The notes: generated from the sequence alone by a model not told the origin. A stretch of 64,000 bases of DNA from Escherichia phage vB_Eco_mar003J3 (NC_048203.1); one strand, 5' to 3'. Counted from the first letter of the stretch, positions 7,944 to 46,425 are shown. Program-made: numbers and translations.

Positions 7944-10793
7944 TTAAATAGATGCCCAATCCACAGATTGCTCGCCATTATCACCTTCTGCTCTTATACG
8001 GAAGCGTAACTTCCTATTAATACCTAGAGCATCCTCGTTATGAAGAGCATAGTCTGCCTTATTGTATATCAGTAGATAATCGTAGACATACTGATCTTCA
8101 ATTCGTACACTTCTTAATAAACGATCTAGGTTATCGTAGATTTCGAGAGTGTAGAAGATTCCATCAATGATATCTTCTTCTGGAATTCTATCCCAGGCCA
8201 ACTTAACGTCTGGTCCTACAAACTCCGATACATCTCCTGAAGCTGTATTAGTAACTCTGAAGTTACTAACGACGCTTAAGTTTTTAGCAGAGTTAAGTTC
8301 TACTGATAGTGTTACTGGAGAACTTCGTCTACCATTAATATCTACAGCTCTAATCTCAAATACTGCTAAACCAGCAGGTTCTCCAATAATTTCTTGGATC
8401 ATTCGTAGATTTGGATTAGTTTCTAATTGCTGTACGATATAAGGATCAGCATGTCCAGAGTGAACGATGGAGTAATAAACAACGTTATTAGTTAAGCTAG
8501 GAAGCCAAGATAGCTCACCATTCTTACCAATAGATCCTACTTGTCCACCCGGTGTTGGTGTATACATAAAGTCTCTAGGAGGCAGTACGTTATTACTAAC
8601 ATCAGGGATATCGTTACCACTATTATCAACCTGCTCGGAGTTAATGAATACATCCTCACCGTACTCTTGCAGTGTAATATTAATCTTACCTTCTCTAGAG
8701 TTTTCAACTTCATCAACTAGGAAGTATTTCTTGTCCCAACCATAACGACCGTATGTAAAAGCAATCGGATCGTTAGGCTCAATGCCTATGAAATGATATG
8801 GTAATGAGAATGTGAGAGTTCGTGAGTAACGAGACTTTTTCAGTTCTCTATCTGCAAAGCTACGCGCAGTATAGTAGTTAGTGATGTTTGCAAAAGAAAG
8901 CTGAAGTTTTTTATCTAACCCTTTATCTTGCTCCTTAAATATAGAGTTAAAGAATGTAATGGAGTTAGTTTTCCAGCTTAATGCGGGATCTAGTATAGAG
9001 GCTTGTACTGAGTTGAATTTATTTCTACCAGTAGTATCTGACAATTCCAGATCACCATAGGTATCTAAGAAGTCAATCTCCAGTGGAGTATTCGAGAACT
9101 TCTCAACAGTTATTCTATACTGACCAGATAAGTTGTTGATAGCACCTCCATAAGACTCTATTAATCCCTGCACGTTTTTAAATACTGACTCAGAGGTATC
9201 GAGAATAGTATTCATTTGAACTATTTGTCTATTCTCTCCTACAGCATCAGTCCATCCAACGTATCTCCAGTAGGGTTGCCAAGAAACCTGATAGGATTCA
9301 TCAATGATATCCAGGATAGCTGCTTCTTGAATAAGTTGCTGGAGAGGGAACTGATCAATAGTGATATTAGCACCGTAGCGGTCAGAGGTTAGGTAGTCCA
9401 GAGTTTGCCAGATACCGTTTAAGCTAGTCTTATCAGCAGTTACTCTACCATCTGAATGGTAGATTTTAGTCTTCTTACCTTGAACTTCAGCACTAACTTC
9501 TGGAATTTCTGTTCTGTTTTCGTTAATAGTAAAGCGAACAATAGCATAAGCAGTATCTAACAGTTTATAACGAGAGTCCCAGTATTCCGGTCCATTCTCA
9601 TTCATGTTCTGTAGATAGAAACCTTTCTCTTTTGCAATGTTAACTAGAACATCCGCAGCAGATTGGTCTGCTCTACCATGGTAAGTCCAGATACGGATAT
9701 CACCATTACCATCATTATACCTATATTCCTGTCCATGAACAGAAGGTTCAGAGCTTGATTGACCAGAAGCAATACGTTGCATGGTATCTCCAGCTACTTT
9801 CTTAGTACCAAAGCAAGTACGAGACTTACTATCATTAGGATCAATACAGATCATTGGTACATCACCAAAGTAGAAATCTAGAAATCCATCAATCTCACCC
9901 TCACAGAATGCATACACTATATATACGATATTAGGGTTATGCAGCTCAGTATCTGCGAATACGGGGATTCCAGGAATTTTCTGAGTTCCATACACTACCG
10001 GGAGGAACTTAGCCGCTAAGTTAAAATCGATATCAACTTCCTTAGTCACAGTCTCATAGTATTTCTTCATGCTATAGCTTCTAGAAAGACCAAATAACTT
10101 TTTCTTAGACTGTAACTTGTAGCGTTCTTCCTGAACCTGATACTTAGCTAGAATAGAGATACTCTTATTAGCGTGGAAGAATCCATAGTCCTCTTGATAT
10201 TCAGGTCGCTTAGCGCCGTTAGATGGAACTAATTGGCCAGCAACAATCTCAAGTCCCCTATGGGCAGCATCATCTGTGAAACGTCCGTTTACTCTATCAA
10301 AGTCATAGAATTGATTTGAACAGTTCCATGTGATAGTAGATGTGCTAATTCCAGAAGTACCAATGTTATCCTTAATACCTCCACCAGTAATTTTACCACG
10401 AAAGTAAAGTAAAGGACCATTAGTGTCTGAATCTACAGGAAGAATATTGCCTTCTTCATCAATAACCGCTTGATGGATTGAGATAGACCTATCTAGGAAG
10501 GATACACCATTTTGGACTAGTTTTAATACTTCATCCTCAGCAGTACCTGTGATAGTAAAAGAAAGACTACCAATGGAAAGATCTCTATTTTGTTTATGTG
10601 TTGTTATAGACTTAACCTTACCGGATGTATAAAGAATACCATTATATCTTACATCTCTAAAATAATCTGTAAGATATATGTACGCAGAACTTGATCCGGT
10701 AGAGCTTGGCAATTCAAGAGTAATAAGGCATGCAGTTTTTATTTTATTATTGGTTCTTAGATACTCTCTTGCACTGTCAAGAATTTTCTTCAT
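7944..10793 (-). CDS. baseplate hub protein (T5 pb3-like)
   Basis: 949 aa, same length as T5 pb3; follows Dit gene with 4-nt overlap. Confidence 0.7.
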   Translation of the reverse strand: MKKILDSAREYLRTNNKIKTACLITLELPSSTGSSSAYIYLTDYFRDVRYNGILYTSGKVKSITTHKQNRDLSIGSLSFTITGTAEDEVLKLVQNGVSFLDRSISIHQAVIDEEGNILPVDSDTNGPLLYFRGKITGGGIKDNIGTSGISTSTITWNCSNQFYDFDRVNGRFTDDAAHRGLEIVAGQLVPSNGAKRPEYQEDYGFFHANKSISILAKYQVQEERYKLQSKKKLFGLSRSYSMKKYYETVTKEVDIDFNLAAKFLPVVYGTQKIPGIPVFADTELHNPNIVYIVYAFCEGEIDGFLDFYFGDVPMICIDPNDSKSRTCFGTKKVAGDTMQRIASGQSSSEPSVHGQEYRYNDGNGDIRIWTYHGRADQSAADVLVNIAKEKGFYLQNMNENGPEYWDSRYKLLDTAYAIVRFTINENRTEIPEVSAEVQGKKTKIYHSDGRVTADKTSLNGIWQTLDYLTSDRYGANITIDQFPLQQLIQEAAILDIIDESYQVSWQPYWRYVGWTDAVGENRQIVQMNTILDTSESVFKNVQGLIESYGGAINNLSGQYRITVEKFSNTPLEIDFLDTYGDLELSDTTGRNKFNSVQASILDPALSWKTNSITFFNSIFKEQDKGLDKKLQLSFANITNYYTARSFADRELKKSRYSRTLTFSLPYHFIGIEPNDPIAFTYGRYGWDKKYFLVDEVENSREGKINITLQEYGEDVFINSEQVDNSGNDIPDVSNNVLPPRDFMYTPTPGGQVGSIGKNGELSWLPSLTNNVVYYSIVHSGHADPYIVQQLETNPNLRMIQEIIGEPAGLAVFEIRAVDINGRRSSPVTLSVELNSAKNLSVVSNFRVTNTASGDVSEFVGPDVKLAWDRIPEEDIIDGIFYTLEIYDNLDRLLRSVRIEDQYVYDYLLIYNKADYALHNEDALGINRKLRFRIRAEGDNGEQSVDWASI

Positions 10794-29786: not shown

Positions 29787-29959
29787 TAGCGCTAATTTGA
29801 AAATCTTGAAATTTCATAAGATTACACATGCGGATGTGCTCAGTGGGACTGGAGATAGTTAGTAGTCTAATAATCCCCCTGTGTTACTATTACCATGCTA
29901 ACTGTTTCATCCTGTAACCATTTTTTAATTACAGGATGAAACTATTTTATTTTTAATTG

Positions 29960-30694
29960 TTAGGCAACTTTTAATTTATCAATGAATTGTTGCGGAGCGG
30001 TACTATAGTCTCCCCTTTCTTCCTCAGTCATACCCTGCCAGCACATTTCTAAGCGCTGGCAAAGATATTGATAATCATTATCATCATCTAACGATTCATC
30101 AATAAAGGTTTCACCGATCAATGCTACGCCGATTGATAGGATATCGTTAACGGCTTGGGCGTCCAGTGTTTTGAATCCAGCACTTGCCGCCACCGATAAT
30201 ACGCCTTTATGATCATCAATCATCGTAAAATCAGCGTTTGGATATAGCTGTTTAAATAGTTCAAAGTAATAGCTTTTGTATACAGCGTCTTTGCTGTGGT
30301 ATATTTCGCTAACCTTATCCGCTTCAAAGTATTTGTGTAATGTATCGCGGGAGAATACGCGGATATTGCTATTTCCGCGCCCTCGCAAGCCTTGTTTACG
30401 CAAATAAAAGTAATCGCTTTTAGACATAAGGCGCGCGGTACAAATAACATTTAAAGTATTTGCATCATTCATACATTGGCGCATATATTCAACCAACGGC
30501 AATAAAGAATCCTGCATAATTAAATCATGTTTACAGGCTTCGCGGGAATACTTATTTAAATTTAAATTCCCGTTATCATCAAAGCAAGGCGCTACACGAT
30601 GGAAAGAATTAATGATTGTGCCGTCCAGATCCCAAATCATGACGCGGGAAATATGCGGGAAATTATGGGTAATATTCGTTTTAACTTGATTCAT
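29960..30694 (-). CDS. dmp: HAD-family 5'-deoxynucleotidase (T5 Dmp-like)
   Basis: 244 aa; HAD motif I WDLDGT near N-terminus. Confidence 0.55.
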   Translation of the reverse strand: MNQVKTNITHNFPHISRVMIWDLDGTIINSFHRVAPCFDDNGNLNLNKYSREACKHDLIMQDSLLPLVEYMRQCMNDANTLNVICTARLMSKSDYFYLRKQGLRGRGNSNIRVFSRDTLHKYFEADKVSEIYHSKDAVYKSYYFELFKQLYPNADFTMIDDHKGVLSVAASAGFKTLDAQAVNDILSIGVALIGETFIDESLDDDNDYQYLCQRLEMCWQGMTEEERGDYSTAPQQFIDKLKVA

Positions 30695-30774
30695 TTGTTA
30701 CATTCTCCATTTAAGGGATCTAGGTTAATTCAGCATTACCCGCTATTTATAAGCGGGTAATAATAAATTAACTA

Positions 30775-31167
30775 TTAAAGACCATACGCCAACGCATCAG
30801 CGATAAAACTAATATCCTCACCTGATACACTGGAACGAATCCCCGCGCAAGTGTAGACCTTTGCAGACATAAGAGCATTATCAAGGCAAGCGGGGCATGG
30901 CGCGACAACTGCAAACGCTAGACCTGATTTTACAGCGTCAATAATAACAGTTTGCTCTTTTACGGTATCAATATAAACGCCTTTTGCTTTTGTATGGCTT
31001 GACGCTTTACCGGTAATGTATGCAAATGTTGTTACCTGTAGCGCCTCGTTAAAGTCTAGCAGTTCATCAATAATATGACCCGATTCAACGTGATAACGCT
31101 CGCCATTAGAATAAACTAGAACGATGGAAGAAGTAGCGTGATCAAAAGGAATGTTTTGGTTTTTCAT
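30775..31167 (-). CDS. A2: pre-early protein (T5 A2-like)
   Basis: 130 aa, immediately downstream of A1-like gene. Confidence 0.4.
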   Translation of the reverse strand: MKNQNIPFDHATSSIVLVYSNGERYHVESGHIIDELLDFNEALQVTTFAYITGKASSHTKAKGVYIDTVKEQTVIIDAVKSGLAFAVVAPCPACLDNALMSAKVYTCAGIRSSVSGEDISFIADALAYGL

Positions 31168-31242
31168 GTTTAAAACTCCAGATTATTTAATTAACTTTTT
31201 CGGGAATATAAGCGGGGAATATTCCCCGCTGATTAAATTTAA

Positions 31243-32907
31243 TTAGGCAAAGAATTTGCCATTTTTGAAATCAATCAAGGTACGTTGACCGTTTGCATAT
31301 GTAATTAAATGCGTTTGCGTCCAGCTTGACGCGCCAACGTTGTAACCCATATCGAGACTACCAGCAACGCCAGCGGTATAAACGCCGCCGTATATACTAG
31401 CCGTGTGAGTGTGGCCCGTGTTGAGGCGTCCTAACTTTTTAAACTGTTTAGGATTGCCCCGACTGCCGTTAATGCCGTTGTGACCATGTACACCGCATTC
31501 AATTCCTGCAATCTTGAAAGATTGGTCAGTAGTCAGGAAAATAGCGTTAAATTCGCAACCTGCAACGTTTCTAAGCGCATAATCCAATACGTTAAAGGTA
31601 TCATCTTGTTTTGCAATAGCCGCATAAATCGCAGCGTTTAGGCTGTGATACAGTTCGGCGTTTGCGGGGTCGTCTTTAATGTTAGCGTTACGATCATCAA
31701 GCCAACGGGATAACGCCAAATCATGATTGGATTCCACGATGATTGTTTGAGAAAAATCGCGCTCCATTGACTCCAACACGCGACCGGTATCAATGAGATC
31801 GTCAATAACTTTATCACGTCCGGCGGCGTATTGTTTCGCAAGGAATACACCACTTGCGCGGTTGTGATGGTTACGCGATGTAAAATCATGCACATCATGA
31901 ATAAACTGATATTTCGGTTTAAGAATATCAAGCAAGCTATTTTCGCCCACCCATGATGCAACGGCGCATTCATCATCTAATTTTTCGGCGTGAATATCGC
32001 CATATTGCAAGCCTAGAACATGATCGGACGTTTCAAAACATCCGGTAGGCATAGCGCAAATATTCAAATCATAAAACATTCCGCTTTCATCCATTGTTTC
32101 AAGCTGGCGAACAAAAAATTCGCCGTCGTCGTCAAATTCTACCAACAAAGCGCCGTAATTATGCAGCGCCTCAGCTTTTTGACCTGCTTTCTGCTGAATA
32201 TAGTTTTTAAGTGTAGCCGTTCCGGTGGAGTACATACGGCGCACTACTTCACCTTTTAACGCTGGCACACTTTCAGCGGTAATTTTAGCGTGACCAATTG
32301 CCAGACCTTCAATATTTAAAGCCGTGGCGGTTTCTGCGAATCCTGAAAGCGGATAGTCTGCCGTTGGTAACACGTTAATTTCAGCCATGAAAGCAAAACG
32401 GCGATTATTTAAAAATACGTTTTTCTCGCAAATATATTTATTAAATGCGGGATCGTATTTAATGCCTTCGTTACCTTCTCCATTCTGGAAGCCGTTTTTA
32501 TTGTAAATGAATTTACTAACCAGCAATTCACCGCCGATATATTCAGCGAATTGCTCAAGCACTTTCAAAAAGTTTTTATGTGGGAAAGTATTATTTTGAA
32601 TCGACGTTAGAATAAAACGGCGACCGGATTTAACTTCCCACTGTTCCACGGTACTAGAAACAATCCCCGCCGCTTCTGGGCGATCATCATTTTTAATCGC
32701 CTTTTCAGCTTTTGCCGCTTTCGGTTTCGCTGGCTTATTTGCTTCCAGCCAGTCACAAATTGCGGTCGAATGTTTCGGCGTGTCATAAACAGCTTTTGAA
32801 ATATCGTCACAAACTTCCAATTTAGTAGCGCGTAAACGCTTGCCATAGAAATTAAAATCAGCGGCAAGTTTAGTGATCTGGGACTGTTTTTCTGCGGAAA
32901 TATTCAT
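31243..32907 (-). CDS. A1: pre-early metallophosphatase-fold protein (T5 A1-like)
   Basis: 554 aa (T5 A1 about 556 aa); calcineurin-like motifs GDIHAE, GHNG, GHTHTAS. Confidence 0.6.
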   Translation of the reverse strand: MNISAEKQSQITKLAADFNFYGKRLRATKLEVCDDISKAVYDTPKHSTAICDWLEANKPAKPKAAKAEKAIKNDDRPEAAGIVSSTVEQWEVKSGRRFILTSIQNNTFPHKNFLKVLEQFAEYIGGELLVSKFIYNKNGFQNGEGNEGIKYDPAFNKYICEKNVFLNNRRFAFMAEINVLPTADYPLSGFAETATALNIEGLAIGHAKITAESVPALKGEVVRRMYSTGTATLKNYIQQKAGQKAEALHNYGALLVEFDDDGEFFVRQLETMDESGMFYDLNICAMPTGCFETSDHVLGLQYGDIHAEKLDDECAVASWVGENSLLDILKPKYQFIHDVHDFTSRNHHNRASGVFLAKQYAAGRDKVIDDLIDTGRVLESMERDFSQTIIVESNHDLALSRWLDDRNANIKDDPANAELYHSLNAAIYAAIAKQDDTFNVLDYALRNVAGCEFNAIFLTTDQSFKIAGIECGVHGHNGINGSRGNPKQFKKLGRLNTGHTHTASIYGGVYTAGVAGSLDMGYNVGASSWTQTHLITYANGQRTLIDFKNGKFFA

Positions 32908-33005
32908 ATATTAATTAACTCCATTAAAGGGATTTAAAACATTTTAAAGCTGGCAATATTGCCAAATATAACGCCGTTTATTTACAGCGTTATAATTTGC
33001 AACAT

Positions 33006-33221
33006 TTAACTAATCGGCATTAGGCTAGAACTTACACCAAGAGCAACGGCGGCAATAAAACAAATAAGACCTAAACTCTTTGCGAATTTAGATTTATGCT
33101 TAAAATAATATGAATCTAAATCATTTTGAAAATAAGCGAATAATAATGAGGCCGCCATAATAAACAAGCCTAGAATGAGGGATTCACTAGGAAAGAAGAT
33201 CATTTTAATAACTCCGGTCAA
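33006..33221 (-). CDS. small membrane protein (2 TM)
   Basis: 71 aa, two hydrophobic helices. Confidence 0.45.
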   Translation of the reverse strand: MTGVIKMIFFPSESLILGLFIMAASLLFAYFQNDLDSYYFKHKSKFAKSLGLICFIAAVALGVSSSLMPIS

Positions 33222-33260
33222 AGGGAAATTATAGCGGGGAATATTCCCCGCTGATTAAAT

Positions 33261-33695
33261 TTATTCGCCTGCGGCCTGTTTTACTTCATCGACAACGCCT
33301 AACAATTGCGCCATGGCTTCCAGCGTTTCCAGTTTTGCACTTTCCAAACTTGCCAGATCGTCGGCGTCTTTGATAATGCCTGAATCAATGGCGTGTTTAG
33401 CGATAACGCGCACATAGTGAGCTTTACGGATTGAGCTACCGCCGCCAACTTTGCGCGGCTTGTCGCTTTTCTGGTAGGCTTTTGCACTGGTCAATTTAGA
33501 ACGTACAGAGACAGGGGAAGCCGCGCCAACGGCGGCGGCGATTTCTTTTAAGCCGTCACTGTTAGCAAATTCAACGCCATTTTTTTCGATCATTTCAGAA
33601 TACAAAGAGACAGCTTTCTGCGTGTTTTCTTCATTCCAAGAGAATTTTGCGGCTTTTTCGGTTTTAACGTTAGACATAGTAAATACTCCGTTCAA
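33261..33695 (-). CDS. pre-early hypothetical protein
   Basis: 144 aa ORF in A1 operon direction. Confidence 0.5.
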   Translation of the reverse strand: MNGVFTMSNVKTEKAAKFSWNEENTQKAVSLYSEMIEKNGVEFANSDGLKEIAAAVGAASPVSVRSKLTSAKAYQKSDKPRKVGGGSSIRKAHYVRVIAKHAIDSGIIKDADDLASLESAKLETLEAMAQLLGVVDEVKQAAGE

Positions 33696-33776
33696 TTATT
33701 AATTAAGGGATTATGATTAACTAATGTTAATCGTTATATTGCCCATATTTCAGGGCAATATAAAAGTAACACTAAT

Positions 33777-34028
33777 TTATGCTATGGCTTGCCATTTATC
33801 ATCTTTCTGAATGACCTTTACAACGTCGCCAGATTTAACACGGACGGTATAAATCGGCTTGCCGTGGTTACTGCGTTCCGTTTCCGCGTAGACCGCTTCA
33901 ATCTTATCAAAGGGATCAAGCGCCGCACCTTTAATACGTTCGGCTTTTCCGGTTAATTCATCCGTTTTAGTTACAAAAGGAATGAATACAGATTGACCTA
34001 CTTTCGGCGCGGTAATAACGTTTTGCAT
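33777..34028 (-). CDS. pre-early hypothetical protein
   Basis: 83 aa ORF. Confidence 0.45.
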   Translation of the reverse strand: MQNVITAPKVGQSVFIPFVTKTDELTGKAERIKGAALDPFDKIEAVYAETERSNHGKPIYTVRVKSGDVVKVIQKDDKWQAIA

Positions 34029-34192
34029 TTTTAATACTCCGGTTTATTGGGGATTATTCCACAATAGCGCCTCGATACTTTGAAACGCTATTAGATTATA
34101 ATCCGCTAGGAGTTAGCCTAAACATTACCGTTATCCAAATTGTTAAAGAGCAGTTACTACGGGGAACATCTTAAAACCTATCGGCTAGCGTG

Positions 34193-34402
34193 TCAAGCGT
34201 TTTTTAAACTTTTTTCGATTTGATGGGAGTTATATAAATCAATCATTATATTACGCCACACCATTTCCAGCCCTTGTTGCTTGCCTTTCTTGTATTGCTT
34301 GAATCTGTATTTTACAGATCGTTGCGCTACTGTCAACAAATTTTTTGTTCTGCTATCAAGCGACTTGATAGGCTTGCCAGTGATCAAAAGCGTTTGTTTC
34401 AT
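34193..34402 (-). CDS. pre-early small basic protein
   Basis: 69 aa, Lys/Arg-rich; first gene after the 1.1-kb regulatory region. Confidence 0.45.
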   Translation of the reverse strand: MKQTLLITGKPIKSLDSRTKNLLTVAQRSVKYRFKQYKKGKQQGLEMVWRNIMIDLYNSHQIEKSLKNA

Positions 34403-34808
34403 ATCGTCGATTCCTTATAATATCTAAGTTTACCGCCGATAGGCTTTAAGATGTTCCCTAATTTTTAAAGAGCATGGCAGGGTTTTGAAAGGTCAAACAG
34501 ACTGTCAATCGCTGTTATCCCCGCCGTGTAGTTCGTCATTGCCGCCCTACGTGATAAATAATAGGAGAATACCGAGAAGGGCGCAAGCGTATTTTTGTAA
34601 AGAAACGTAAAGAAAACCACTACTCGCAAACGTCCAGCGGCGCATTAAATTTAATGAAACGGGCGCGCGAATAACACCAAAACAACCATTTTAGCAAGTA
34701 ATTTTTTCATTTATATCTGCTCTAGGGTACTTGACAAAATCTAAAATCCTCGTGGTGAGGTTTTCTCGGTGTACCCCTTATGATTGCCTATCTTTTCCTT
34801 TGAGGCGC

Positions 34809-34835
34809 TTAGAATGCGTTACAGAGCGTTTTAGA
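34809..34835. repeat. 27-bp element TTAGAATGCGTTACAGAGCGTTTTAGA, copy 1
   Basis: identical to 38232..38258. Confidence 0.9.
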
Positions 34836-35165
34836 CCCTGTTAATAACTTATACAAAAAGCAAAAATGAAATTTAATGAGTTATCCACTTGATTTTTCAA
34901 AAAAGTATTTTCTGCTGTTATTTTTCATTGACAAATAAGTCTGGACGTGTATCAGATCGTTAGCAGACTAATAATCGCTAGGATGATAATCACGCTGGTG
35001 GATTGTAACGGCTGAAATCATTAGCAGACTATTAATCAAGGAAAATCCTATTAGCCAACTAACTATTTCATAATATATAATATACATATAAATTAATGAG
35101 AAATAATAAATATGAGAAACTATCGGGCTAAGTGAGAACCACTATCATTTAACTTATACCCAAAG

Positions 35166-35174
35166 TTATCCACA
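35166..35174 (+). promoter_or_regulatory. DnaA box TTATCCACA
   Basis: perfect 9-mer consensus. Confidence 0.6.
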
Positions 35175-35214
35175 GCACAAAATAACTTGACGCAATAGGC
35201 GACGTTTTGGCGAC

Positions 35215-35223
35215 TTATCCACA
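35215..35223 (+). promoter_or_regulatory. DnaA box TTATCCACA
   Basis: perfect 9-mer consensus, 49 bp from first box. Confidence 0.6.
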
Positions 35224-35243
35224 GACTTATATACAGGTTATCC

Positions 35244-35263
35244 TACTGTATAAATATACAGGG
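35244..35263. promoter_or_regulatory. LexA (SOS) box-like palindrome followed by TAGAAT -10-like hexamer
   Basis: TACTGTATAAATATACAGGG: CTGT-N8-ACAG core, 18/20 to TACTGTATATATATACAGTA. Confidence 0.5.
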
Positions 35264-35510
35264 TAGAATGGTAGCAGTAACAACCGCAATCAAATTTAAG
35301 CGGCCTAGAACGCGCTACACGGCGTTTTCTCACTGCTGCCCTTATTATAATAAAGCCTTGTGTACACTTACAGAGTGCTAGAAATAGAAAACGCGCGGAT
35401 ATCATAAAAACAGGCAGTAAGCAAGGAATAAAAAACCTTTTCTTTTTCCTTGCCCCTAGCGAACAAATATCTATATCATTCACTCACCGATTAACGAGGG
35501 AGACAAAGAA

Positions 35511-36536
35511 ATGTCTACTGTAAGAATTGCAGTACCAGCAAACGCCACTATTATTAAGGGTAGTTTGCGCAACCTGCTAGACGGATCAAGTCTAGCAAGC
35601 CTACAGCTAGACGGATCAAGTCTAGCAAGCCTACAACATACGGCGGCAATGGTTGAAAAGATTCACGATGAAATTTTAGATAATAATGATACTCATTATT
35701 GTTTAAGTGATTTCACACAATTACTAGACCCTACCCGCGTTCTAGTGCTTTACAACCGTGACTATCACATCATGCGAAATCAGCGGGGAAGAGATATTGA
35801 TTTTATCATTGTAGGTCACGACGAAAAAAGCTATATTGCCCGTGGTTACAATGTACAAGAAAAAGAAATGGTTTTCGCTACTCGCGTAAATGGTATTAAT
35901 TCCAGCGATGTAGAAGATTTACTATCTAGTATTTGTGGCGAATTGACAAGCGCCATTAAACGTGCTGATAGTTACGCAATCGAAACAACTGGCGTATTGT
36001 GTTTTGGACGCGCTAGAGGTAACATGTTGATCCCTAACGATTATTTAGAGTATGGGAATGAATCAAACGTTGCAAACGCTGGATTTACACTTTTACCGCT
36101 TGACAATGTAACAAAACAGGCTGTACAATCTCAAACTTCAAGCGCAAATGCGCAAACTACTGAAAATAAAGGAAATATTATGTCTAAAGTATCTTCTATC
36201 GTTGCTGCTAATAAATCCGCCGTTGTAAACGCTGCTAAACTGGAAGTGGGTAAAATTGCACTGACTCAAGTCACAAAAGTAGCGGCGAAAAAAGCACCGT
36301 TTATGATTAAAGGGTATATTGATACGCCGATTGGTCGTGTAGTGATCGCTAACCTGCTGAGTGTAGCGGTTGACCAGTACGCCCCGACTAATGCGAAAGC
36401 TAAAGCGGTAGCAGGCGCGGCAATGGAAGCGGCAATGTTGGAAATGGTACAAAGTTTCAATATTGCTGAAATGATCGATGAAATGGTAAAAGGTATTGAC
36501 ATTTCAACCTTTACCCAAAATGCTGAAAGCGAGTAA
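35511..36536 (+). CDS. hypothetical protein with internal tandem duplication and Ala/Val-rich C-terminal region
   Basis: 341 aa; RBS GAGGGAG; rho-independent terminator downstream. Confidence 0.6.
   Translation: MSTVRIAVPANATIIKGSLRNLLDGSSLASLQLDGSSLASLQHTAAMVEKIHDEILDNNDTHYCLSDFTQLLDPTRVLVLYNRDYHIMRNQRGRDIDFIIVGHDEKSYIARGYNVQEKEMVFATRVNGINSSDVEDLLSSICGELTSAIKRADSYAIETTGVLCFGRARGNMLIPNDYLEYGNESNVANAGFTLLPLDNVTKQAVQSQTSSANAQTTENKGNIMSKVSSIVAANKSAVVNAAKLEVGKIALTQVTKVAAKKAPFMIKGYIDTPIGRVVIANLLSVAVDQYAPTNAKAKAVAGAAMEAAMLEMVQSFNIAEMIDEMVKGIDISTFTQNAESE
35577..35636 (+). repeat. tandem 30-bp duplication (29/30 identical) inside CDS
   Basis: ctagacggatcaagtctagcaagcctaca[g/a] twice; encodes LDGSSLASLQ x2. 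Confidence 0.9.
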
Positions 36537-36564
36537 TAATTAGTCTAATGTAAAGTTTTGTAAA

Positions 36565-36590
36565 GGTCGCCCTAATCGGCGGCCTTTTTT
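36565..36590 (+). terminator. rho-independent terminator
   Basis: ggtcgcc-ctaatc-ggcggcc followed by TTTTTT. Confidence 0.65.
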
Positions 36591-36654
36591 GTTATAATGC
36601 CTTTACACCGAAACGGTGGATTGAAAATTTTCCCCGATTTCTAGGAGGCGTTAA

Positions 36655-36882
36655 ATGGTACATTCATCATCTTCTGCAATTTTTAATGGTATGGAATGGG
36701 TATCCGTTCCCACTATTGTAAGCGTTATGGTTTCGGAGTTTGGGATTGGTAAAACTTATGTTACCATTCAGGAGCTTTACGACAATGACAAGATTGATCA
36801 GCAAACAGCCGGATTTTTGCTGGATGAATTGAAAGCTAACCACTGCACCAAAAAGCAAGCGGCAAAAATTGTTTTAATGTAA
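36655..36882 (+). CDS. hypothetical small protein
   Basis: 75 aa; strong RBS CTAGGAGG 7 nt upstream. Confidence 0.55.
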   Translation: MVHSSSSAIFNGMEWVSVPTIVSVMVSEFGIGKTYVTIQELYDNDKIDQQTAGFLLDELKANHCTKKQAAKIVLM

Positions 36883-36930
36883 TTAATAACGGGGCGTTAC
36901 TTTCGCCCCTAATTTCTAGGAGCTAATAAA

Positions 36931-37080
36931 ATGGTTATTTTTCGATCAGTTCTAGCAGGTATCTTGGGCGCTATTTTATCGTTGTTTGCAATAGCTTTCG
37001 GTGTTCATGCCGTTATTATCGGCGCGGGTATCGCGGGGTTTTCTTACCTGTTAGGCTGTATGACTGGTAAAGGGGGATAA
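36931..37080 (+). CDS. 49-aa hydrophobic glycine-zipper membrane peptide (not in ORF track)
   Basis: ATG at 36931 preceded by TCTAGGAGC; MVIFRSVLAGILGAILSLFAIAFGVHAVIIGAGIAGFSYLLGCMTGKGG; stop 37078..37080. Confidence 0.5.
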   Translation: MVIFRSVLAGILGAILSLFAIAFGVHAVIIGAGIAGFSYLLGCMTGKGG

Positions 37081-37082
37081 AA

Positions 37083-37295
37083 ATGTTAAAAAATGTAAGC
37101 CTTGCCCGTTCTAAAGGTTTTAAGCTGGTGGATGTTAACACGTTCGAGCGTCCAGATTGTAAAATCGAATATGTAGCACGCAACAAAAACGCGTTTCGTG
37201 TTACAGAAAAGAAATTTGACAAGCGCGGCAATTTGGTAGCCGAAACGGTTAAACACTTTGCCACCTTTTACGCTGCGTTTCGGGGAGTGTTATAA
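37083..37295 (+). CDS. hypothetical small protein
   Basis: 70 aa, starts 2 nt after the membrane peptide stop. Confidence 0.5.
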   Translation: MLKNVSLARSKGFKLVDVNTFERPDCKIEYVARNKNAFRVTEKKFDKRGNLVAETVKHFATFYAAFRGVL

Positions 37296-37296
37296 A

Positions 37297-37641
37297 ATGG
37301 TAATTTACGAGGGCAACCGATTTGTAACTAATTGCCGTCCGGCATTATTAGCAAACTATTTAAATCAGCTTTCACCAGTTTATAAAGGCGTGGTTAATAT
37401 CTATGAGGGCAAAGCACATTATAAAATTTCTGCCGTTGTCGCCCGTGAACTAGCGTTTCAATTTTTAACTTTTGGGTCTTGTGACGTTCAGGTTATGGGG
37501 GAAGCGTTAATAGCGGAAAATGAAAATGAATTTATTGACATTTTCCGCAAAGTATGTACAGAGCGCCTGATTATGAAAGGCGCGTATATTCAATCAACCG
37601 CTGAAAGTATCGAAACAGCGTTTCGAAAGGTGGCGCAATGA
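37297..37641 (+). CDS. hypothetical protein (likely start at internal ATG 37297 rather than 37258)
   Basis: RBS GGGGAG upstream of 37297; stop of upstream gene at 37293..37295. Confidence 0.5.
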   Translation: MVIYEGNRFVTNCRPALLANYLNQLSPVYKGVVNIYEGKAHYKISAVVARELAFQFLTFGSCDVQVMGEALIAENENEFIDIFRKVCTERLIMKGAYIQSTAESIETAFRKVAQ

Positions 37642-37823
37642 CTAGAAATGAAGCTGTTAAAGCTATGTTAGAAGGTAAAAAAGTAACTCATCGTTATTTT
37701 TCCATGCATGAATATTTATTCATGAAATATGAAGTGATCACCACGGAGGATGGTTATAAATTTAATCATGAATTTTATAGCCGTGAAATGTTTAATGATG
37801 GCTGGCAGCTTTATTATGAATAG
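37638..37823 (+). CDS. hypothetical small protein
   Basis: 61 aa; ATGA start/stop overlap with upstream gene. Confidence 0.5.
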   Translation: MTRNEAVKAMLEGKKVTHRYFSMHEYLFMKYEVITTEDGYKFNHEFYSREMFNDGWQLYYE

Positions 37824-37949
37824 CTGGTGGCGAAAAACACAAAGCCATAAATCTAATAATACCGCTGGGAAACATTCCCAGCGTTTACGATTTGGTAATG
37901 GCTTCACAATGATATTGATAATCATTCTCATTCTAGGAGCAATGGCGTT

Positions 37950-38144
37950 ATGAGTGATAAAATTGTTGTAACTAAAACTACTGTTACCGTTGATACTTTC
38001 TTTGTGCCTGATACGCTGGAAAATCGGCAAGCGGTGGAGCGTGGCGATTATGATAAAGTGATTTATGATAACGATGGTTACTATCAACATTTGGTAGACT
38101 CCTACGGCGAAAGCGAAAAGATCACACATCGACTACCAGACTAA
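37950..38144 (+). CDS. hypothetical small protein
   Basis: 64 aa; RBS TAGGAGC upstream; terminator downstream. Confidence 0.5.
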   Translation: MSDKIVVTKTTVTVDTFFVPDTLENRQAVERGDYDKVIYDNDGYYQHLVDSYGESEKITHRLPD

Positions 38145-38150
38145 TAATAA

Positions 38151-38180
38151 CGGGGCGCAACTATCGGCCCCGTCTTTTCT
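38151..38180 (+). terminator. rho-independent terminator ending the plus-strand cassette
   Basis: cggggc-gcaactatcg-gccccg then TCTTTTCT. Confidence 0.65.
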
Positions 38181-38231
38181 GGCCTTCCTCAAATTTCCCC
38201 TTATTAAAATACCTCCGCCAAAAATAAACGC

Positions 38232-38258
38232 GTTAGAATGCGTTACAGAGCGTTTTAG
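38232..38258. repeat. 27-bp element TTAGAATGCGTTACAGAGCGTTTTAGA, copy 2
   Basis: identical to 34809..34835. Confidence 0.9.
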
Positions 38259-38289
38259 AGCTATATTAGAGTTATTCACTACGCAGGAA

Positions 38290-38309
38290 TACTGTATAAA
38301 TATACAGTA
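38290..38309. promoter_or_regulatory. LexA (SOS) box-like palindrome followed by TAGAAT
   Basis: TACTGTATAAATATACAGTA: 19/20 to E. coli LexA consensus. Confidence 0.5.
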
Positions 38310-38390
38310 GAATAACCTGTTGATAAGTCTGTTGATAACGCCCCAAAATCGCTAGGATTTTGTCAAGTCAAATCGTGCTGTTAATAAACC

Positions 38391-38399
38391 TGTGGATAA
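38391..38399 (-). promoter_or_regulatory. DnaA box TTATCCACA (reverse orientation)
   Basis: plus strand tgtggataa. Confidence 0.55.
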
Positions 38400-38430
38400 C
38401 TTAAATAACAGTGTTTCTCACTTCGCTTTG

Positions 38431-38575
38431 TAAATGCGAGTCATTCTCATTATCATTAGCGTTTCCCTTCCTAAATGCAAATCATTCTCATTCGTATTCC
38501 GGTAGTCAAATGATAACTGTTCTCATTCGCATTCAACTTCTCAAATGCGAATCATTCTCATTATCATTCGCATTT
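38431..38575. repeat. three copies of AAATGC(G/A)A(G/A)TCATTCTCATT motif; third copy is a hairpin AAATGCGAAT...ATTCGCATTT
   Basis: copies at 38431..38459, 38471..38498, 38541..38575. Confidence 0.8.
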
Positions 38576-38606
38576 CGGCAGGCAGGGCAATTTGCCCTGC
38601 GCTTTT

Positions 38607-39207
38607 GTGCAAATCCGACATTTGCCCCCACGGATTACGTGCCAGTGTGCATGTGCGAATCCGACAATTTTTGGTAGTGTGCAAATCCGATGGGAAATAT
38701 TTTTTATATGTGCGAATCCGACAATGAATTTTCCTAAAAACTCCAGCAATCCGCAACTGCGATGCAATCCAGCTGGATTTACTAGAATATGTGCAAAACC
38801 GACAAGTGTTAAGGTGTGCGAATCCGACAAGATTTTTGTGACTTCGATTGGAGGGTGTGTGATTGTGTGGGTTTGGGGAGAAGTGCGAATCCGATGAGAT
38901 TTTGGGAGGAACTACGGAAGGAGCAGCGGTGATGGTGCTTTAGCACCGATTTGCTGCATTTTTGGGGATAATGCGGGATGTTTTGGCTAGAATTGAGATT
39001 AGTGGAGATAAAGCGAAATTTTATTAGCAAAATGGGGCAAAATCGCTTGACAAGTGAAAATTCCTGTGGCTCTAAAAACTCAGGCAATCATGGGCCTTCG
39101 GCCCGAAATAATGCTGCTATTTTCAGTGTTCCTAAAAACTTTGGAGACTCCTATCAATGTGCAAATCCGACCATAAATTTCTAGAAACATAATGTGCAAA
39201 TCCGATA
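38607..39207. repeat. array of 9 direct copies of 14-bp motif GTGCRAATCCGAYN with irregular spacing (injection-stop-like region)
   Basis: copies at 38607, 38653, 38679, 38710, 38791 (variant), 38816, 38883, 39159, 39194; no ORF with RBS; also CCTAAAAACT x3 and AACCGCCCT x3 nearby (39071..39300). Confidence 0.8.
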
Positions 39208-39739
39208 GCAATTTCCAGAAATGTGTTTTGGAAAAATGTCTCCTAGAAATAACCGCCCTCCCTATAACCGCCCTGTATAGGAAACCGCCCTAGGATATGT
39301 AACGTTGGAGAGAAACTGCCCTAGAATGCGTGAGAAACAGATTTAAAGTTTAGTGTAAACTCTAGAGTTAATGCTCAACTATTCCTAGAAACTTAGGAGT
39401 CTACTAGAAAGTGTTGTGCCATCCTAGCAGATGAGCGGCAACCGGTGTATCATCTTGAACACAAATATTGCCTTTAAATATTATAAGGTAAATAAAAGTT
39501 AATATACCCCCATTTCATGAGAGTTAGCCCCTCTAGGCGCGTGCGATTTGATACATCCTCCTGAGTCTCGGGGAGGAAGAACAATTGACGAGAACCTGCA
39601 AGCAGAACCGTCATCAAGTATTTTCCTACGAGGAATGATGTAAATCTACGGCCTAGAGGTAAAAACAAGTTGATGTTTTTAATCTATGAGATTATTATAA
39701 CATGCAGCTCAAATAATGTCAAGAAGATTTTGCTAACGT

Positions 39740-40465
39740 TTATAGATCGTGATTGACTTTGAGTATGACTCCCTTCGATGCCATGAAAAGGAATGTTGCT
39801 AGGTAAGATGACTCGGAATTTAGCGCAGAATAATCTACACTTCCTCTAGGTCTAGTTTCTTGTTTAGTGTCAAGAATTGTTTCGATATCAAACTTAACAG
39901 ATCTTGCAACTTTTCTAGCTTGTTCAGGATCACGTAAGATTTCAAAGTGAGCAGCATCTAGAATATGGTTAGATGATGTTGATTCGTCAACTATACTTAG
40001 ATGAACCTGCGCAAGTGTAGATACGATTCCTAGCTTTAATTCAGATAGAGAAGAATATGGTGGTTCTACTTTCTTTGTAAGTCTAGGGAGATGATCGTAT
40101 TTACATTGCTTTTGAGGAATCATCAGAATATTAGGATAACATTCTAAACATGACTTTGCATTTCCTTCTTTAAAATGCGGGAGTTCTTTATCTGCAAAGA
40201 CGTGGAATGAATCTGCTGAAAATCCTTTAATAGTAGGATCAACAGTTTGAATCAGACGACGTAAACTAATATATGAAGGAGCTAATGTGACTTCTTCTGC
40301 ATCTTTATTATATTTAGGTTGCCCACTAGCATTAATATATGCTGGATAAAACTCTGCACAAAATGCTACTGCATGAGCTTCTAACTCATTAAGTTCGGAA
40401 ACATTCTTTCCATTACAAGCTCTAGCTAACTTAATAATCTCTGCTAAATTCTTTTTTATACTCAT
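39740..40465 (-). CDS. early hypothetical protein
   Basis: 241 aa; first minus-strand gene after repeat array. Confidence 0.5.
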   Translation of the reverse strand: MSIKKNLAEIIKLARACNGKNVSELNELEAHAVAFCAEFYPAYINASGQPKYNKDAEEVTLAPSYISLRRLIQTVDPTIKGFSADSFHVFADKELPHFKEGNAKSCLECYPNILMIPQKQCKYDHLPRLTKKVEPPYSSLSELKLGIVSTLAQVHLSIVDESTSSNHILDAAHFEILRDPEQARKVARSVKFDIETILDTKQETRPRGSVDYSALNSESSYLATFLFMASKGVILKVNHDL

Positions 40466-45834: not shown

Positions 45835-46425
45835 TCAAACATTGATATCTCCTCTCAATACCGCCGCCACATCTTCATCGATTTGGAGTATTTCACCAGT
45901 AGTGCAGTTAACCACTTTATCATAGCTTGTGAACTTGCCAGACACAATATCCTCTAGAGGAATAGGAGTCTTGCTCATCTCAAAAGAGACGTTGATATAA
46001 CGTGGATCACGCACAGAATTGGTGTGCACATGTCCGTGAATGTTTAGCTTACCACGAAGTTCTGCTTCGTGCAATGGACAGTGTGACAGCCAAAACTTCT
46101 TGCCACCACCTGTTTGCTTACCTAGAGCCTGAATATCATCATAAACGTCTACAAGATCTTTAATACGCAGACCCTGACGTTCAGCATCGTGGTTGCCCAT
46201 GATTAACTGGTTAGGCACATTGTGGATAACCGACTTTAATTTAGCCAACCCTTCACGCCCCACGGCAATATCCCCTAGCAAGACGAGCTTAGTACGCTTG
46301 CCAATGTGCTTGGACAAAGTATCTAGGATATATTCATCATGTTCTTTCATATTCTTAAACCACGGACGGAAGCGAAGAGTTCCAGGGTGGTCTAAGTGCA
46401 AATCCGACCAGAATTTAACTTTCAT
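45835..46425 (-). CDS. calcineurin-like metallophosphoesterase
   Basis: DLHLDHP ... GDIAVG ... GNHD ... HGHVH motifs. Confidence 0.65.
   Translation of the reverse strand: MKVKFWSDLHLDHPGTLRFRPWFKNMKEHDEYILDTLSKHIGKRTKLVLLGDIAVGREGLAKLKSVIHNVPNQLIMGNHDAERQGLRIKDLVDVYDDIQALGKQTGGGKKFWLSHCPLHEAELRGKLNIHGHVHTNSVRDPRYINVSFEMSKTPIPLEDIVSGKFTSYDKVVNCTTGEILQIDEDVAAVLRGDINV

What the first reader, a model, noticed from the sequence alone, without database searches (positions are those of the whole stretch)
38431..39300. Dense non-coding repeat array at the junction of pre-early and early regions (injection-stop-like)
About 0.9 kb with no credible ORF contains 9 direct copies of GTGCRAATCCGAYN at irregular spacing, 3 copies of an AAATGCGAATCATTCTCATT-type element (one forming a 10-bp hairpin), and shorter repeated CCTAAAAACT, AACCGCCCT and CTAGAAA motifs. 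The position, immediately after the A1/A2/dmp-like genes and before the early genes, matches where T5 pauses DNA injection. The repeats could be binding sites for a protein that arrests or resumes transfer. They are not CRISPR-like.
Basis: partly seen in the sequence, partly recalled or inferred. Interest (0 to 1): 0.55.

Follow-up and report, generated by a model that had tools for sequence, protein, structure and literature searches.

The report
T5 injection-stop repeat region, rediscovered
The repeat cluster is real, but it is this phage's copy of the long-known non-coding "injection stop signal" region at the right edge of the T5-type terminal repeat, so it is a correct rediscovery whose mechanism nobody has yet shown.

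Summary
Observation confirmed. Window 38145-39739 is a 1.6 kb non-coding gap between convergent pre-early (+) and early (-) genes of a T5-like phage (Epseptimavirus-type). It aligns almost base for base with T5 "Repeat Region 3". T5 GenBank records already annotate this stretch as the injection stop signal, and one names each repeat.

The AAATGCGAATCATTCTCATT elements are "direct repeat C" (DRC).

What I add:
- The 13-bp DRD core is invariant in five Demerecviridae lineages, including Vibrio phages, while spacers drift. That is the signature of protein-binding sites.
- The array starts 4 nt after the conserved 7.9 % nick site.
- The array straddles the terminal-repeat cut site. Eight annotated termini (T5 twice, BF23, Sw2, Sepoy, KpGranit, MM-1, phiR2-01) place that cut at window 39072|39073. 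DRD1-7 lie inside the repeat and DRD8-9 outside.

Function remains untested anywhere. I rate a role in halting or restarting DNA transfer at about 0.4 and a role in terminal-repeat cutting or packaging at about 0.3. Neither A2 nor the small terminase co-varies with the motif.

Novelty: already known. Interest: low to moderate.

The parts
29838..39072 (.). Inferred long direct terminal repeat, 9235 bp (dmp, A1, A2, small pre-early ORFs, repeat regions). In this assembly only one copy is present.
   Evidence: The left end aligns with position 1 of Sw2, BF23 and T5. The right end aligns with the annotated ends of eight records. No read data were available for this phage itself.
38149..38173 (+). 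Hairpin after the last + strand pre-early ORF (T5 'palindrome C', annotated there as a terminator).
   Evidence: Mapping to T5 9194-9213.
38290..38309 (.). T5 'palindrome D', TACTGTATAAATATACAGTA. It matches the ideal LexA/SOS box at 19 of 20 positions (consensus recalled from memory).
   Evidence: 0 expected by chance. Identical in T5. Present in KpGranit, BBMuffin and PM135.
38318..38338 (-). DnaA-box-like pair 1 (TGTTGATAA gtc TGTTGATAA), two boxes 3 bp apart. Part of T5 IRD'/DRB1.
   Evidence: Davison 2020 describes these pairs. E. coli DnaA prefers box pairs spaced 2-3 bp apart (PMC11317965).
38379..38399 (-). DnaA-box pair 2 (TGTTAATAA acc TGTGGATAA); the second box is the consensus TTATCCACA. 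Part of T5 IRC'/DRB2.
38428..38575 (+). DRC zone: the AAATGCGAATCATTCTCATT-type elements at 38432, 38473, 38508 (degenerate) and 38543, with hairpin 38543-38575. These are T5 direct repeat C copies 1-4 and palindromes E-I.
   Evidence: Each copy sits 3 mismatches from the Fur-box 7-1-7 consensus.
38582..38602 (+). Palindrome J hairpin (38582-38600) overlapping CCCTGCGC (38595-38602), the homologue of the T5 'major single-stranded nick 1, 7.9 %'.
   Evidence: The PhageTerm 'repeat end' of phage Seafire falls exactly here, after window 38601.
38607..38619 (+). DRD1, GTGCAAATCCGAC, 4 nt after the nick motif.
   Evidence: Conservation 0.99 across 25 genomes.
38653..38665 (+). DRD2
38679..38691 (+). 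DRD3
38710..38722 (+). DRD4
38791..38803 (+). DRD5 (one mismatch, GTGCAAAACCGAC).
38816..38828 (+). DRD6
38883..38895 (+). DRD7, an extra copy present in this phage and some relatives and degenerate in T5.
39006..39072 (+). Conserved block ending at the terminal-repeat cut: ...TTGACAAGTGAAAATTCCTGTGGCTC | TAAAAAC. It is the only part of the array region still detectable by blastn in Klebsiella Sugarlandviruses.
   Evidence: (0.89).
39092..39104 (.). GGGCCTTCGGCCC hairpin 20 nt right of the cut. A different sequence also forms a hairpin at this position in KpGranit and PM135.
   Evidence: Conservation of 39073-39110 is 0.93.
39159..39171 (+). DRD8 (T5 copy 7), outside the terminal repeat.
39194..39206 (+). 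DRD9 (T5 copy 8), outside the terminal repeat.
39251..39291 (+). Three AACCGCCCT motifs, also present in KpGranit, the My1 type and PM135.
39694..39722 (-). Consensus sigma-70 promoter (TTGACA-17-TGtTATAAT) pointing left into the non-coding region.
   Evidence: The hexamers are conserved and the spacer is free in more than 20 genomes.

Best explanation
Identity (near certain, about 0.97): this is the window phage's copy of the T5-family 'Repeat Region 3', the non-coding control region at the right edge of the long terminal repeat that T5 records label the injection stop signal. The nine GTGCRAATCCGAY copies are the T5 DRD repeats. The AAATGCGAATCATTCTCATT elements are the DRC repeats.

Mechanism (about 0.4): the region is a landing pad for DNA-binding proteins that controls the pause and restart of genome transfer.

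Shown:
- The DRD 13-mers are islands of strict conservation in drifting spacers, all in one orientation, with spacing kept between genera. That is how protein-binding sites behave, not RNA or DNA structure.
- The array begins 4 nt after the conserved nick motif and runs across the terminal-repeat boundary.
- Immediately to its left lie two DnaA-box pairs with the 3-bp spacing that DnaA prefers in vivo, a near-perfect LexA-type palindrome, and the DRC palindromes.

Inferred:
- As the left end enters the cell, host proteins load on the left-hand sites, which are the last DNA to enter in the first step.
- The DRD stretch is the DNA held in the envelope or tail during the pause.
- An unidentified sequence-specific protein recognises DRD to hold the DNA or to let transfer resume once A1/A2 are made.

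Which protein binds DRD is unknown.
For: Homology and element-by-element mapping to T5. The iss annotation in AY543070. 524 T5-like records carry the region. The motif is far above chance.

Conservation is 0.86-0.99 in most DRDs against 0.5-0.7 in most spacers. The core is invariant in five lineages, 218 instances. Spacing 46-26-31-81/71-25/35 is kept across Markadamsvirinae. The order nick motif, 3 nt, T/G, DRD1 is kept in T5, Klebsiella KpGranit, Vibrio BBMuffin and even PM135.

The published first-step end (T5 about 9618, about window 38550) lies just left of the array. DnaA-box pairs spaced 3 bp match the in vivo DnaA preference. There is no coding signal, no Rfam family, and no paired DRD sites in enterobacterial or Vibrio chromosomes.
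Against: - No experiment anywhere links DRD, or any single element, to the stop.
- Davison 2020 assigns DRD no role and favours the DnaA-box inverted repeats.
- By the published estimate every DRD lies beyond the first-step DNA, so cytoplasmic A1/A2 could not reach the left-repeat copy during the pause.
- T5 ejects all its DNA in vitro with FhuA alone, which argues against a stop built into the virion DNA.
- PM135 has T5-like A2 (44 %) but no DRD array, while the Vibrio phage with 40 % A2 keeps it.
- The embedding of the repeat cut site inside the array in several lineages is not predicted by a pure injection role.
Confidence: 0.4

Rival explanations
1. The DRD array is the recognition platform for making the terminal repeat's right end. 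A phage protein (terminase small subunit or an accessory factor) binds the repeats on both sides of the cut at 39072|39073, as in lambda cosQ-cosN-cosB, SPP1 pacL-pacC-pacR or the P1 pac hexamers. Because the left end is injected first, the right end should be packaged first. That puts DRD1-7 within the first 470 bp packaged.
For: The cut site maps to the same nucleotide in T5 (two records), BF23, Sw2, Sepoy, KpGranit (the last four by PhageTerm), MM-1 and phiR2-01, and at eight IMG/VR contig ends.

DRDs flank the cut in four lineages:
- window 7+2 and T5 6+3
- KpGranit 5+4
- My1 6+4
- Vibrio BBMuffin about 5+3

The 67 bp left of the cut and a hairpin right of it are the best conserved non-DRD parts. 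Terminase genes sit just outside the repeat's left end.
Against: The candidate small terminase diverges in its N-terminal helix-turn-helix region between T5-type and Vibrio phages (47 % identity overall) while DRD stays invariant. PM135 has a 53 %-identical small terminase but no DRD array. No DRD occurs near the left repeat boundary at 29838. The nearest DRDs are 87 and 177 bp from the cut. The packaging direction is inferred from the general last-in-first-out rule, not shown for T5. The flanking arrangement could be inherited from one ancestor, so the lineages are not independent trials.
Confidence: 0.3
2. The region is an iteron-type replication origin. DnaA-box pairs, nine direct 13-bp iterons for a phage initiator, a nick that offers a 3'-OH, and a strong promoter firing into the region would activate or prime replication.
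For: DnaA-box pairs. A same-orientation direct repeat array. A conserved consensus promoter at 39722-39694 aimed at the region. The nick site adjoins DRD1.
Against: Electron-microscopy studies cited by Davison place T5 origins near the middle of the genome. No initiator-like gene adjoins the array, and its neighbours have no Pfam match and are poorly conserved. GC content is 0.408 against 0.401 for the window, so there is no AT-rich unwinding element.
Confidence: 0.08
3. The motifs act in RNA. The conserved leftward promoter makes a non-coding transcript that carries the reverse complement of DRD9 and DRD8 (and more if it reads through) as repeated protein- or RNA-binding motifs.
For: The promoter hexamers are conserved with a free spacer. 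The hairpin at 39092-39104 could end such a transcript near the repeat boundary (where Sw2 annotates a - strand terminator there).
Against: Seven of the nine DRDs lie beyond that hairpin. There is no Rfam match. The first 230 nt of the putative transcript are poorly conserved (0.50). DRD has no stem potential and its conservation is sequence-strict rather than compensatory.
Confidence: 0.05
4. The repeats are neutral leftovers of slippage or duplication in a gene-free gap and have no function.
For: None beyond the absence of experiments.
Against: The core is invariant over lineages whose A1 proteins are only 33 % identical, while the spacers diverge beyond blastn detection.
Confidence: 0.02

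Closest known systems
Bacteriophage T5 Repeat Region 3 / injection stop signal region (Heusterspreute et al. 1987; Wang et al. 2005, GenBank AY587007 9194-10409; AY543070 misc_feature iss 9140..10149; Davison 2015 and bioRxiv 10.1101/866236)
   Same: Same position (right edge of the terminal repeat, between convergent pre-early and early genes). Same order of elements: palC, palD, DnaA-box pairs 52 bp apart, DRC repeats, palJ, nick motif, DRD repeats, repeat end, two more DRDs, AACCGCCCT motifs. DRD spacing is identical for copies 1-6. Column identity is 84 %.
   Different: Minor only. This phage has an extra intact DRD at 38883 where T5 is degenerate. It lacks T5 DRD copy 9 (window 39329 reads CGTGAGAAACAGA). 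Its DRC zone is 28 bp shorter. The repeat is about 9.2 kb against 10.1 kb in T5.
Terminase recognition sites with repeated elements flanking the cut (lambda cosQ-cosN-cosB, SPP1 pacL-pacC-pacR, P1 pac hexamers). Recalled from established knowledge, not tested here.
   Same: Short protein-binding repeats sit on both sides of a precise cleavage site, with a conserved core at the cut.
   Different: No binding data exist. The array spans 600 bp. The product is a 9 kb direct terminal repeat, not cohesive or headful ends. The motif does not co-vary with the small terminase.
T7 concatemer junction: arrays of short direct repeats next to the 160-bp terminal repeat and a hairpin intermediate in repeat duplication (Dunn and Studier 1983; Chung, Nardone and Hinkle 1990). 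From memory.
   Same: Direct-terminal-repeat phage with arrays of short same-orientation repeats at the repeat boundary and a hairpin beside it.
   Different: The T7 repeats are about 7 bp and unrelated in sequence. The T7 repeat is about 60 times shorter. T7 has no two-step transfer of the T5 kind.
Iteron-type origins (P1 oriR, pSC101, lambda ori)
   Same: DnaA boxes sit next to a set of direct repeats.
   Different: There is no adjacent initiator gene and no AT-rich element. Published mapping places T5 origins elsewhere.

Membership tests
T5-type Repeat Region 3 / iss region | Non-coding gap at the right end of the long terminal repeat, between + strand pre-early ORFs and - strand early ORFs, downstream of dmp-A1-A2. 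| tested here: met
   ORF layout. A1 is 90-98 % identical to annotated A1 proteins. There is no codon signal in the gap.
T5-type Repeat Region 3 / iss region | Sequence homology to T5 9194-10409. | tested here: met
   84 % mean column identity over 1.6 kb. 524 T5-like records match.
T5-type Repeat Region 3 / iss region | Same ordered set of named elements (palC, palD, IRD'/IRC' with DnaA-box pairs, DRC x4, palJ, nick motif, DRD x9). | tested here: met
   Every T5 feature maps to a conserved window counterpart except DRD copy 9.
T5-type Repeat Region 3 / iss region | Inverted partner (IRC-spacer-IRD) about 2-4 kb to the left, in Repeat Region 2. | tested here: met
   TTATCCACA at 35166 and 35215 on the opposite strand, and a palD-like copy at 35244.
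T5-type Repeat Region 3 / iss region | The terminal-repeat boundary lies inside the region. | tested here: met
   Met by homology only. The cut-site sequence is identical to Sw2 and matches eight annotated termini. No reads or virion DNA of this phage were available.
T5-type Repeat Region 3 / iss region | DNA transfer pauses here until A1 and A2 are made. | not testable with these tools
   This needs infection experiments. It is also not mapped to the nucleotide in T5 itself.
Terminase recognition site (pac/cos type) | Repeated elements flank a precise cleavage site. | tested here: met
   DRD counts either side of the cut are 7+2 (window), 6+3 (T5), 5+4 (KpGranit) and 6+4 (My1).
Terminase recognition site (pac/cos type) | The motif co-evolves with, or is bound by, the small terminase. 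| tested here: not met
   The motif is invariant while the small terminase's helix-turn-helix region diverges. PM135 has a 53 % identical TerS but no array. Binding itself is not testable here.
Iteron-type replication origin | Direct repeats plus DnaA boxes plus an AT-rich unwinding element plus an adjacent initiator gene. | tested here: not met
   The repeats and DnaA boxes are present. GC content equals the genome average, and the neighbouring genes have no recognisable domains and are not conserved.
CRISPR array | Repeats of 23-50 bp at regular spacing with unique spacers of similar length. | tested here: not met
   The core is 13 bp, the spacing runs from 25 to 276 bp, and the spacers are conserved between phages.
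Known RNA families (Rfam 15) | A match reaching a family's gathering score. | tested here: not met
   The best hit is 26.9 bits against a threshold of 90.

The most novel reading that the evidence does not exclude
What textbooks call the T5 injection stop signal may be two adjoining modules.

- Left module (38290-38602): a host-factor trap holding a near-consensus LexA box, DnaA-box pairs with the 3-bp spacing DnaA needs in vivo, and Fur-box-like DRC palindromes. This module halts the entering DNA.
- Right module (38607-39206): the DRD iterons. Under this reading they are not part of the stop at all. They are the long-missing cis signal that tells the maturation machinery where to cut and duplicate the 9-10 kb terminal repeat.

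Neither the LexA-type box nor the Fur-like character of DRC is mentioned in the T5 papers I could read.
Probability: 0.25. Interest if true: 0.6.

Novelty: already known. Interest (0 to 1): 0.3.

Why it matters
Two-step DNA transfer in T5 has lacked a mechanism since the 1960s. It is again topical because pre-early genes and the first-step DNA decide how these phages meet restriction, CRISPR and chemical defences.

The finding itself adds nothing to the annotated T5 record. The comparative picture built here narrows where to look:
- a 13-bp core that has not changed across subfamilies and hosts;
- an array that always straddles the repeat cut site;
- a first copy locked to the 7.9 % nick;
- host-factor-like sites directly to the left.

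It also gives a practical warning. PhageTerm can report the nick as the repeat end, as in Seafire, so annotated repeat lengths in this family are not all comparable.

Tried and rejected
- **DRD as part of nick recognition: rejected.** The T5 18.3 % nick and its window homologue (51625) have CCCTGCGC but no DRD.
- **Extra DRD copy at 46396 as a distant functional site: rejected.** It encodes W-S-D-L-H-L-D-H at the N-terminus of a - strand phosphoesterase-like gene, and it is conserved for that reason in a distant relative. The copy at 41025 has no notable context.
- **Host transcription-factor site: no support.** A scan of 185,579 genomes for DRD pairs gave 9 hits. None was in enterobacterial or Vibrio chromosomes. 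Two were mis-binned T5-like fragments and the rest were unrelated tandem repeats. I compared DRD by eye with consensus sites recalled from memory (CRP, LexA, FadR, marbox, NtrC, XerC arm, DnaA box and others) and found no convincing match.
- **A2 or small terminase as the binder, by co-variation: inconclusive to negative**.
- **The first early gene next to the array as a dedicated binder: rejected.** It has no Pfam domain and only 15-31 % identity between lineages.
- **Rfam families: none**.
- **Literal motif strings in the paper library:** no relevant paper.
- **Davison 2015 (Bacteriophage 5:e1086500):** not held in the library, so its treatment of DRD is known to me only through the 2020 preprint.
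- **PM135 as a clean DRD-negative control:** only partly usable. It keeps one degenerate DRD at the nick and an inverted cluster of TGCAAAT(CC) cores.

Full report
**What is in the sequence.** Window 38145-39739 is a gap between the last + strand small ORF (stop at 38144) and the first - strand ORF (39740-40465).

- GTGCRAATCCGAY occurs nine times on the + strand between 38607 and 39206. Eight copies are exact and one has a single mismatch. The whole window holds 11 matches at <=1 mismatch against 0.11 expected from shuffles.
- AAATGCRARTCATTCTCATT occurs at 38432, 38473 and 38543 against 0.02 expected, with a degenerate fourth copy at 38508. A 13-nt-arm hairpin lies at 38543-38575.
- Mechanical ORFs of up to 101 aa cross the stretch. 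Across 22 related genomes none is more variable at codon position 3. Nothing reaches any Rfam threshold.

**What it is.** The region matches 524 phage records, all T5-like (Epseptimavirus, Tequintavirus, Klebsiella Sugarlandvirus), at up to 96-97 % identity. Upstream lie dmp (29960-30694), A1 (31243-32907, up to 98 % identical to annotated A1 proteins) and A2 (33261-33695).

Aligned to T5 AY587007 the gap shows 84 % column identity. Every feature that record annotates maps onto a conserved counterpart:

| T5 feature | Window coordinates |
|---|---|
| palindrome C (terminator) | 38149-38173 |
| palindrome D | 38290-38309 |
| IRD'/IRC' with their DnaA-box pairs | 38318-38338 and 38379-38399 |
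| direct repeat C copies 1-4 | 38428-38569 |
| palindrome J | 38582-38600 |
| major single-stranded nick 1, 7.9 % | 38595-38602 |

The second T5 record, AY543070, labels the stretch 'injection stop signal (iss)'. Davison's preprint describes it as Repeat Region 3 with 'nine DRD repeats' and traces the description back to 1987.

**The terminal-repeat boundary.** Annotated repeat ends in relatives at first looked inconsistent. Seafire's end maps to window 38601, chee130_1's to 38863 and T5's to 39072.

The Seafire value falls inside CCCTGCG|C, the nick motif, so PhageTerm there most probably reported the nick rather than the end.

T5 (two records), BF23, Sw2, Sepoy and Klebsiella KpGranit (the last four by PhageTerm), MM-1 and phiR2-01 all end at the same nucleotide...TTGACA-N17-TGTGG[C/A]TC | TAAAAAC. 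Eight IMG/VR contigs that carry both repeats also end there. In the window this is 39072|39073. The left ends of Sw2, BF23 and T5 align at 29838, which gives an inferred repeat of 9235 bp.

DRD1-7 are therefore inside the repeat, 177-466 bp from its end. DRD8-9 are 87 and 122 bp outside it. The 67 bp left of the cut are the only part of the array region that blastn still detects in Klebsiella Sugarlandviruses.

**Comparative anatomy.**

- *Conservation.* In a 25-genome alignment DRD1 scores 0.99, DRD2 0.93 and DRD8/9 0.92. The cut-site block scores 0.89 and the 38 bp after it 0.93. Most spacers score 0.5-0.7.
- *Spacing.* The DRD spacing 46-26-31-81/71-25/35 is fixed across Markadamsvirinae.
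- *Klebsiella KpGranit.* It has the same architecture, with five DRDs inside the repeat and four outside at regular 27-bp intervals.
- *My1-type phages.* They have six inside and four outside.
- *Vibrio phage BBMuffin.* Its A1 is only 33 % identical. It still has the palindrome, DnaA boxes, CCTCCTGCGC, then GGTGCAAATCCGACA and further copies on both sides of its repeat end.
- *Motif core.* Over 218 instances in five lineages the core G-T-G-C-R-A-A-T-C-C-G-A-Y is essentially invariant, while position 5 toggles A/G freely. This is the signature of sequence-specific protein recognition.
- *Distribution.* A scan of IMG/VR for DRD pairs returned only contigs of T5-like size or fragments of them. 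A scan of 185,579 bacterial genomes returned no enterobacterial or Vibrio chromosomal site.
- *The partial exception.* Proteus phage PM135 keeps the LexA-like palindrome, DnaA pairs, nick motif, one degenerate DRD and the TTGACA end block. It has no DRD array, only an inverted cluster of TGCAAAT(CC) cores.

**What it probably does.** No experiment links any element here to a function. [quoted passage not shown] Davison 2020 favours membrane-bound DnaA on the DnaA-box inverted repeats and gives DRD no role.

My best reading (about 0.4) keeps the accepted frame. The region is a protein landing pad that governs the pause and restart of transfer. Host factors would load on the left-hand sites, which are the last DNA to enter in the first step. 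The DRD stretch is the DNA held at the envelope or in the tail.

- In support: the array begins where first-step DNA is estimated to end (T5 about 9618, about window 38550). DRD1 is locked to the 7.9 % nick in every lineage examined.
- Against: by that same estimate cytoplasmic A1/A2 cannot reach the array during the pause. In vitro ejection is complete. A2 similarity does not track DRD presence.

The main rival (about 0.3) is that DRD marks the repeat's right end for the maturation or packaging machinery. Repeats flanking a precise cut recall lambda cos, SPP1 pac and P1 pac. The left end is injected first, which by the last-in-first-out rule puts DRD1-7 in the first DNA packaged. Both points rest on established knowledge and were not tested here. 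Against this rival, the candidate small terminase (window 25894-26376) diverges in its N-terminal DNA-binding region while the motif does not. PM135 has a 53 %-identical small terminase without the array.

An iteron-type origin (0.08), an RNA-level role (0.05) and neutrality (0.02) fit worse, for the reasons given with each rival.

**Leads noticed on the way.**

- Palindrome D matches the ideal LexA box at 19 of 20 positions and is kept in all lineages.
- The DnaA boxes come in pairs 3 bp apart, the configuration that E. coli DnaA needs in vivo.
- The DRC elements resemble Fur boxes, and such matches are concentrated in the terminal repeat of enterobacterial T5-like phages but not the Vibrio phage.
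- A consensus sigma-70 promoter at 39722-39694 on the - strand fires into the gap. Its hexamers are conserved and its spacer varies freely.

The LexA and Fur consensus sequences are from my memory, so these are leads and not tests. The T5 papers I could read do not mention them.

**Verdict.** Its mechanism is still open. The new value here is the conserved embedding of the repeat cut site inside an invariant-motif array, together with the host-factor-like sites beside it. These give concrete experiments.

Noticed in passing
window 38595-38602 (Seafire MK050846.2 position 9592): The PhageTerm-predicted terminal repeat of phage Seafire ends exactly inside CCCTGCG|C, the homologue of the T5 7.9 % nick. 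This is 471 bp short of the end found in eight other records. PhageTerm probably reported the nick. Annotated repeat lengths in this family are therefore not all comparable.
   Followed up: yes
window 38290-38309 and 35244-35263: T5 'palindrome D' is TACTGTATAAATATACAGTA, 19 of 20 to the ideal LexA/SOS box (consensus from memory; 0 matches expected). A second CTGT-N8-ACAG copy sits in Repeat Region 2. The palindrome is conserved in T5, Klebsiella, Vibrio and Proteus phages. The T5 papers I could read do not mention it.
   Followed up: partly
window 38432-38566, 30069-30083, 37916-37930; T5 L002 233, 9579: The DRC elements resemble the Fur-box 7-1-7 consensus TGATAATnATTATCA. A perfect copy lies inside dmp. 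13 of 21 matches at <=3 mismatches in the 64 kb window fall in the 9.2 kb terminal repeat. The first 12 kb of T5 hold 12 matches against 2.0 expected. The Vibrio phage shows no enrichment.
   Followed up: partly
window 39694-39722, - strand: A perfect sigma-70 promoter (TTGACA-17-TGtTATAAT) sits just after the stop of the first early gene and points left into the 'non-coding' gap. In more than 20 genomes the hexamers are conserved while the 17-bp spacer is free to vary, so it is very likely functional. Its transcript and purpose are unknown.
   Followed up: partly
window 39092-39104; KpGranit L008 about 1887-1903; PM135 L058 about 1870-1897: A hairpin lies about 20 nt right of the terminal-repeat cut (GGGCCTTCGGCCC). 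In Klebsiella and Proteus phages a different sequence at the same place also forms a hairpin. This recalls the hairpin intermediate proposed for T7 repeat duplication (from memory).
   Followed up: no
window 38734-38751 vs 39072-39089: The 18 nt that start at the repeat cut (CTAAAAACTCAGGCAATC) have a 16/18 copy 338 bp upstream, inside the array between DRD4 and DRD5.
   Followed up: no
window 38863-38865 and 38913: A few deposited genomes (chee130_1/saus132 group, IMG/VR contigs behind L054 and L021) end their repeats inside the DRD array rather than at 39072. They may be mis-called or genuinely different. Which it is was not resolved.
   Followed up: partly
window 46396-46408: The only exact DRD match outside the array is coding. 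Its reverse complement encodes S-D-L-H within M-K-V-K-F-W-S-D-L-H-L-D-H, a phosphoesterase-type motif at the start of a - strand gene. It is conserved for that reason in a distant relative (L047). It is a coincidence, not a tenth site.
   Followed up: yes
window 29289-29786: An HNH homing endonuclease gene lies directly left of the terminal repeat's left end (29838). Most relatives lack it, and their similarity to the window resumes at about 29712.
   Followed up: no
L020 and L055 (IMG/VR metagenome contigs), L067 (MAG contig CAZMBF010000179.1): Two metagenomic T5-like contigs carry six DRDs in tight 15-bp tandem after the same LexA-like and DnaA-box module. An unrelated 2.3 kb 'Alphaproteobacteria' contig has a 22-bp tandem array, GGTGCAATCGAGACTATAAAAT, with a DRD-like core.
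   Followed up: no
window 29838 and 39072 (virion termini by homology): Read toward each terminus, both ends finish with a similar short motif: T5 GTGGACA| and GTGGATC|, window CTGAGC| and GTGGCTC|. This is a weak hint of a symmetric cleavage motif.
   Followed up: no
window 39385-39460: A 76-nt block (…GTGTTGTGCCATCCTAGCAGATGAGCGGCAACCGGTGTATCATCTTGAAC) is nearly identical to T5 and scores 0.78 over 25 genomes. It is flanked by poorly conserved DNA (0.46-0.50) and lies downstream of the leftward promoter. Its function is unknown.
   Followed up: no
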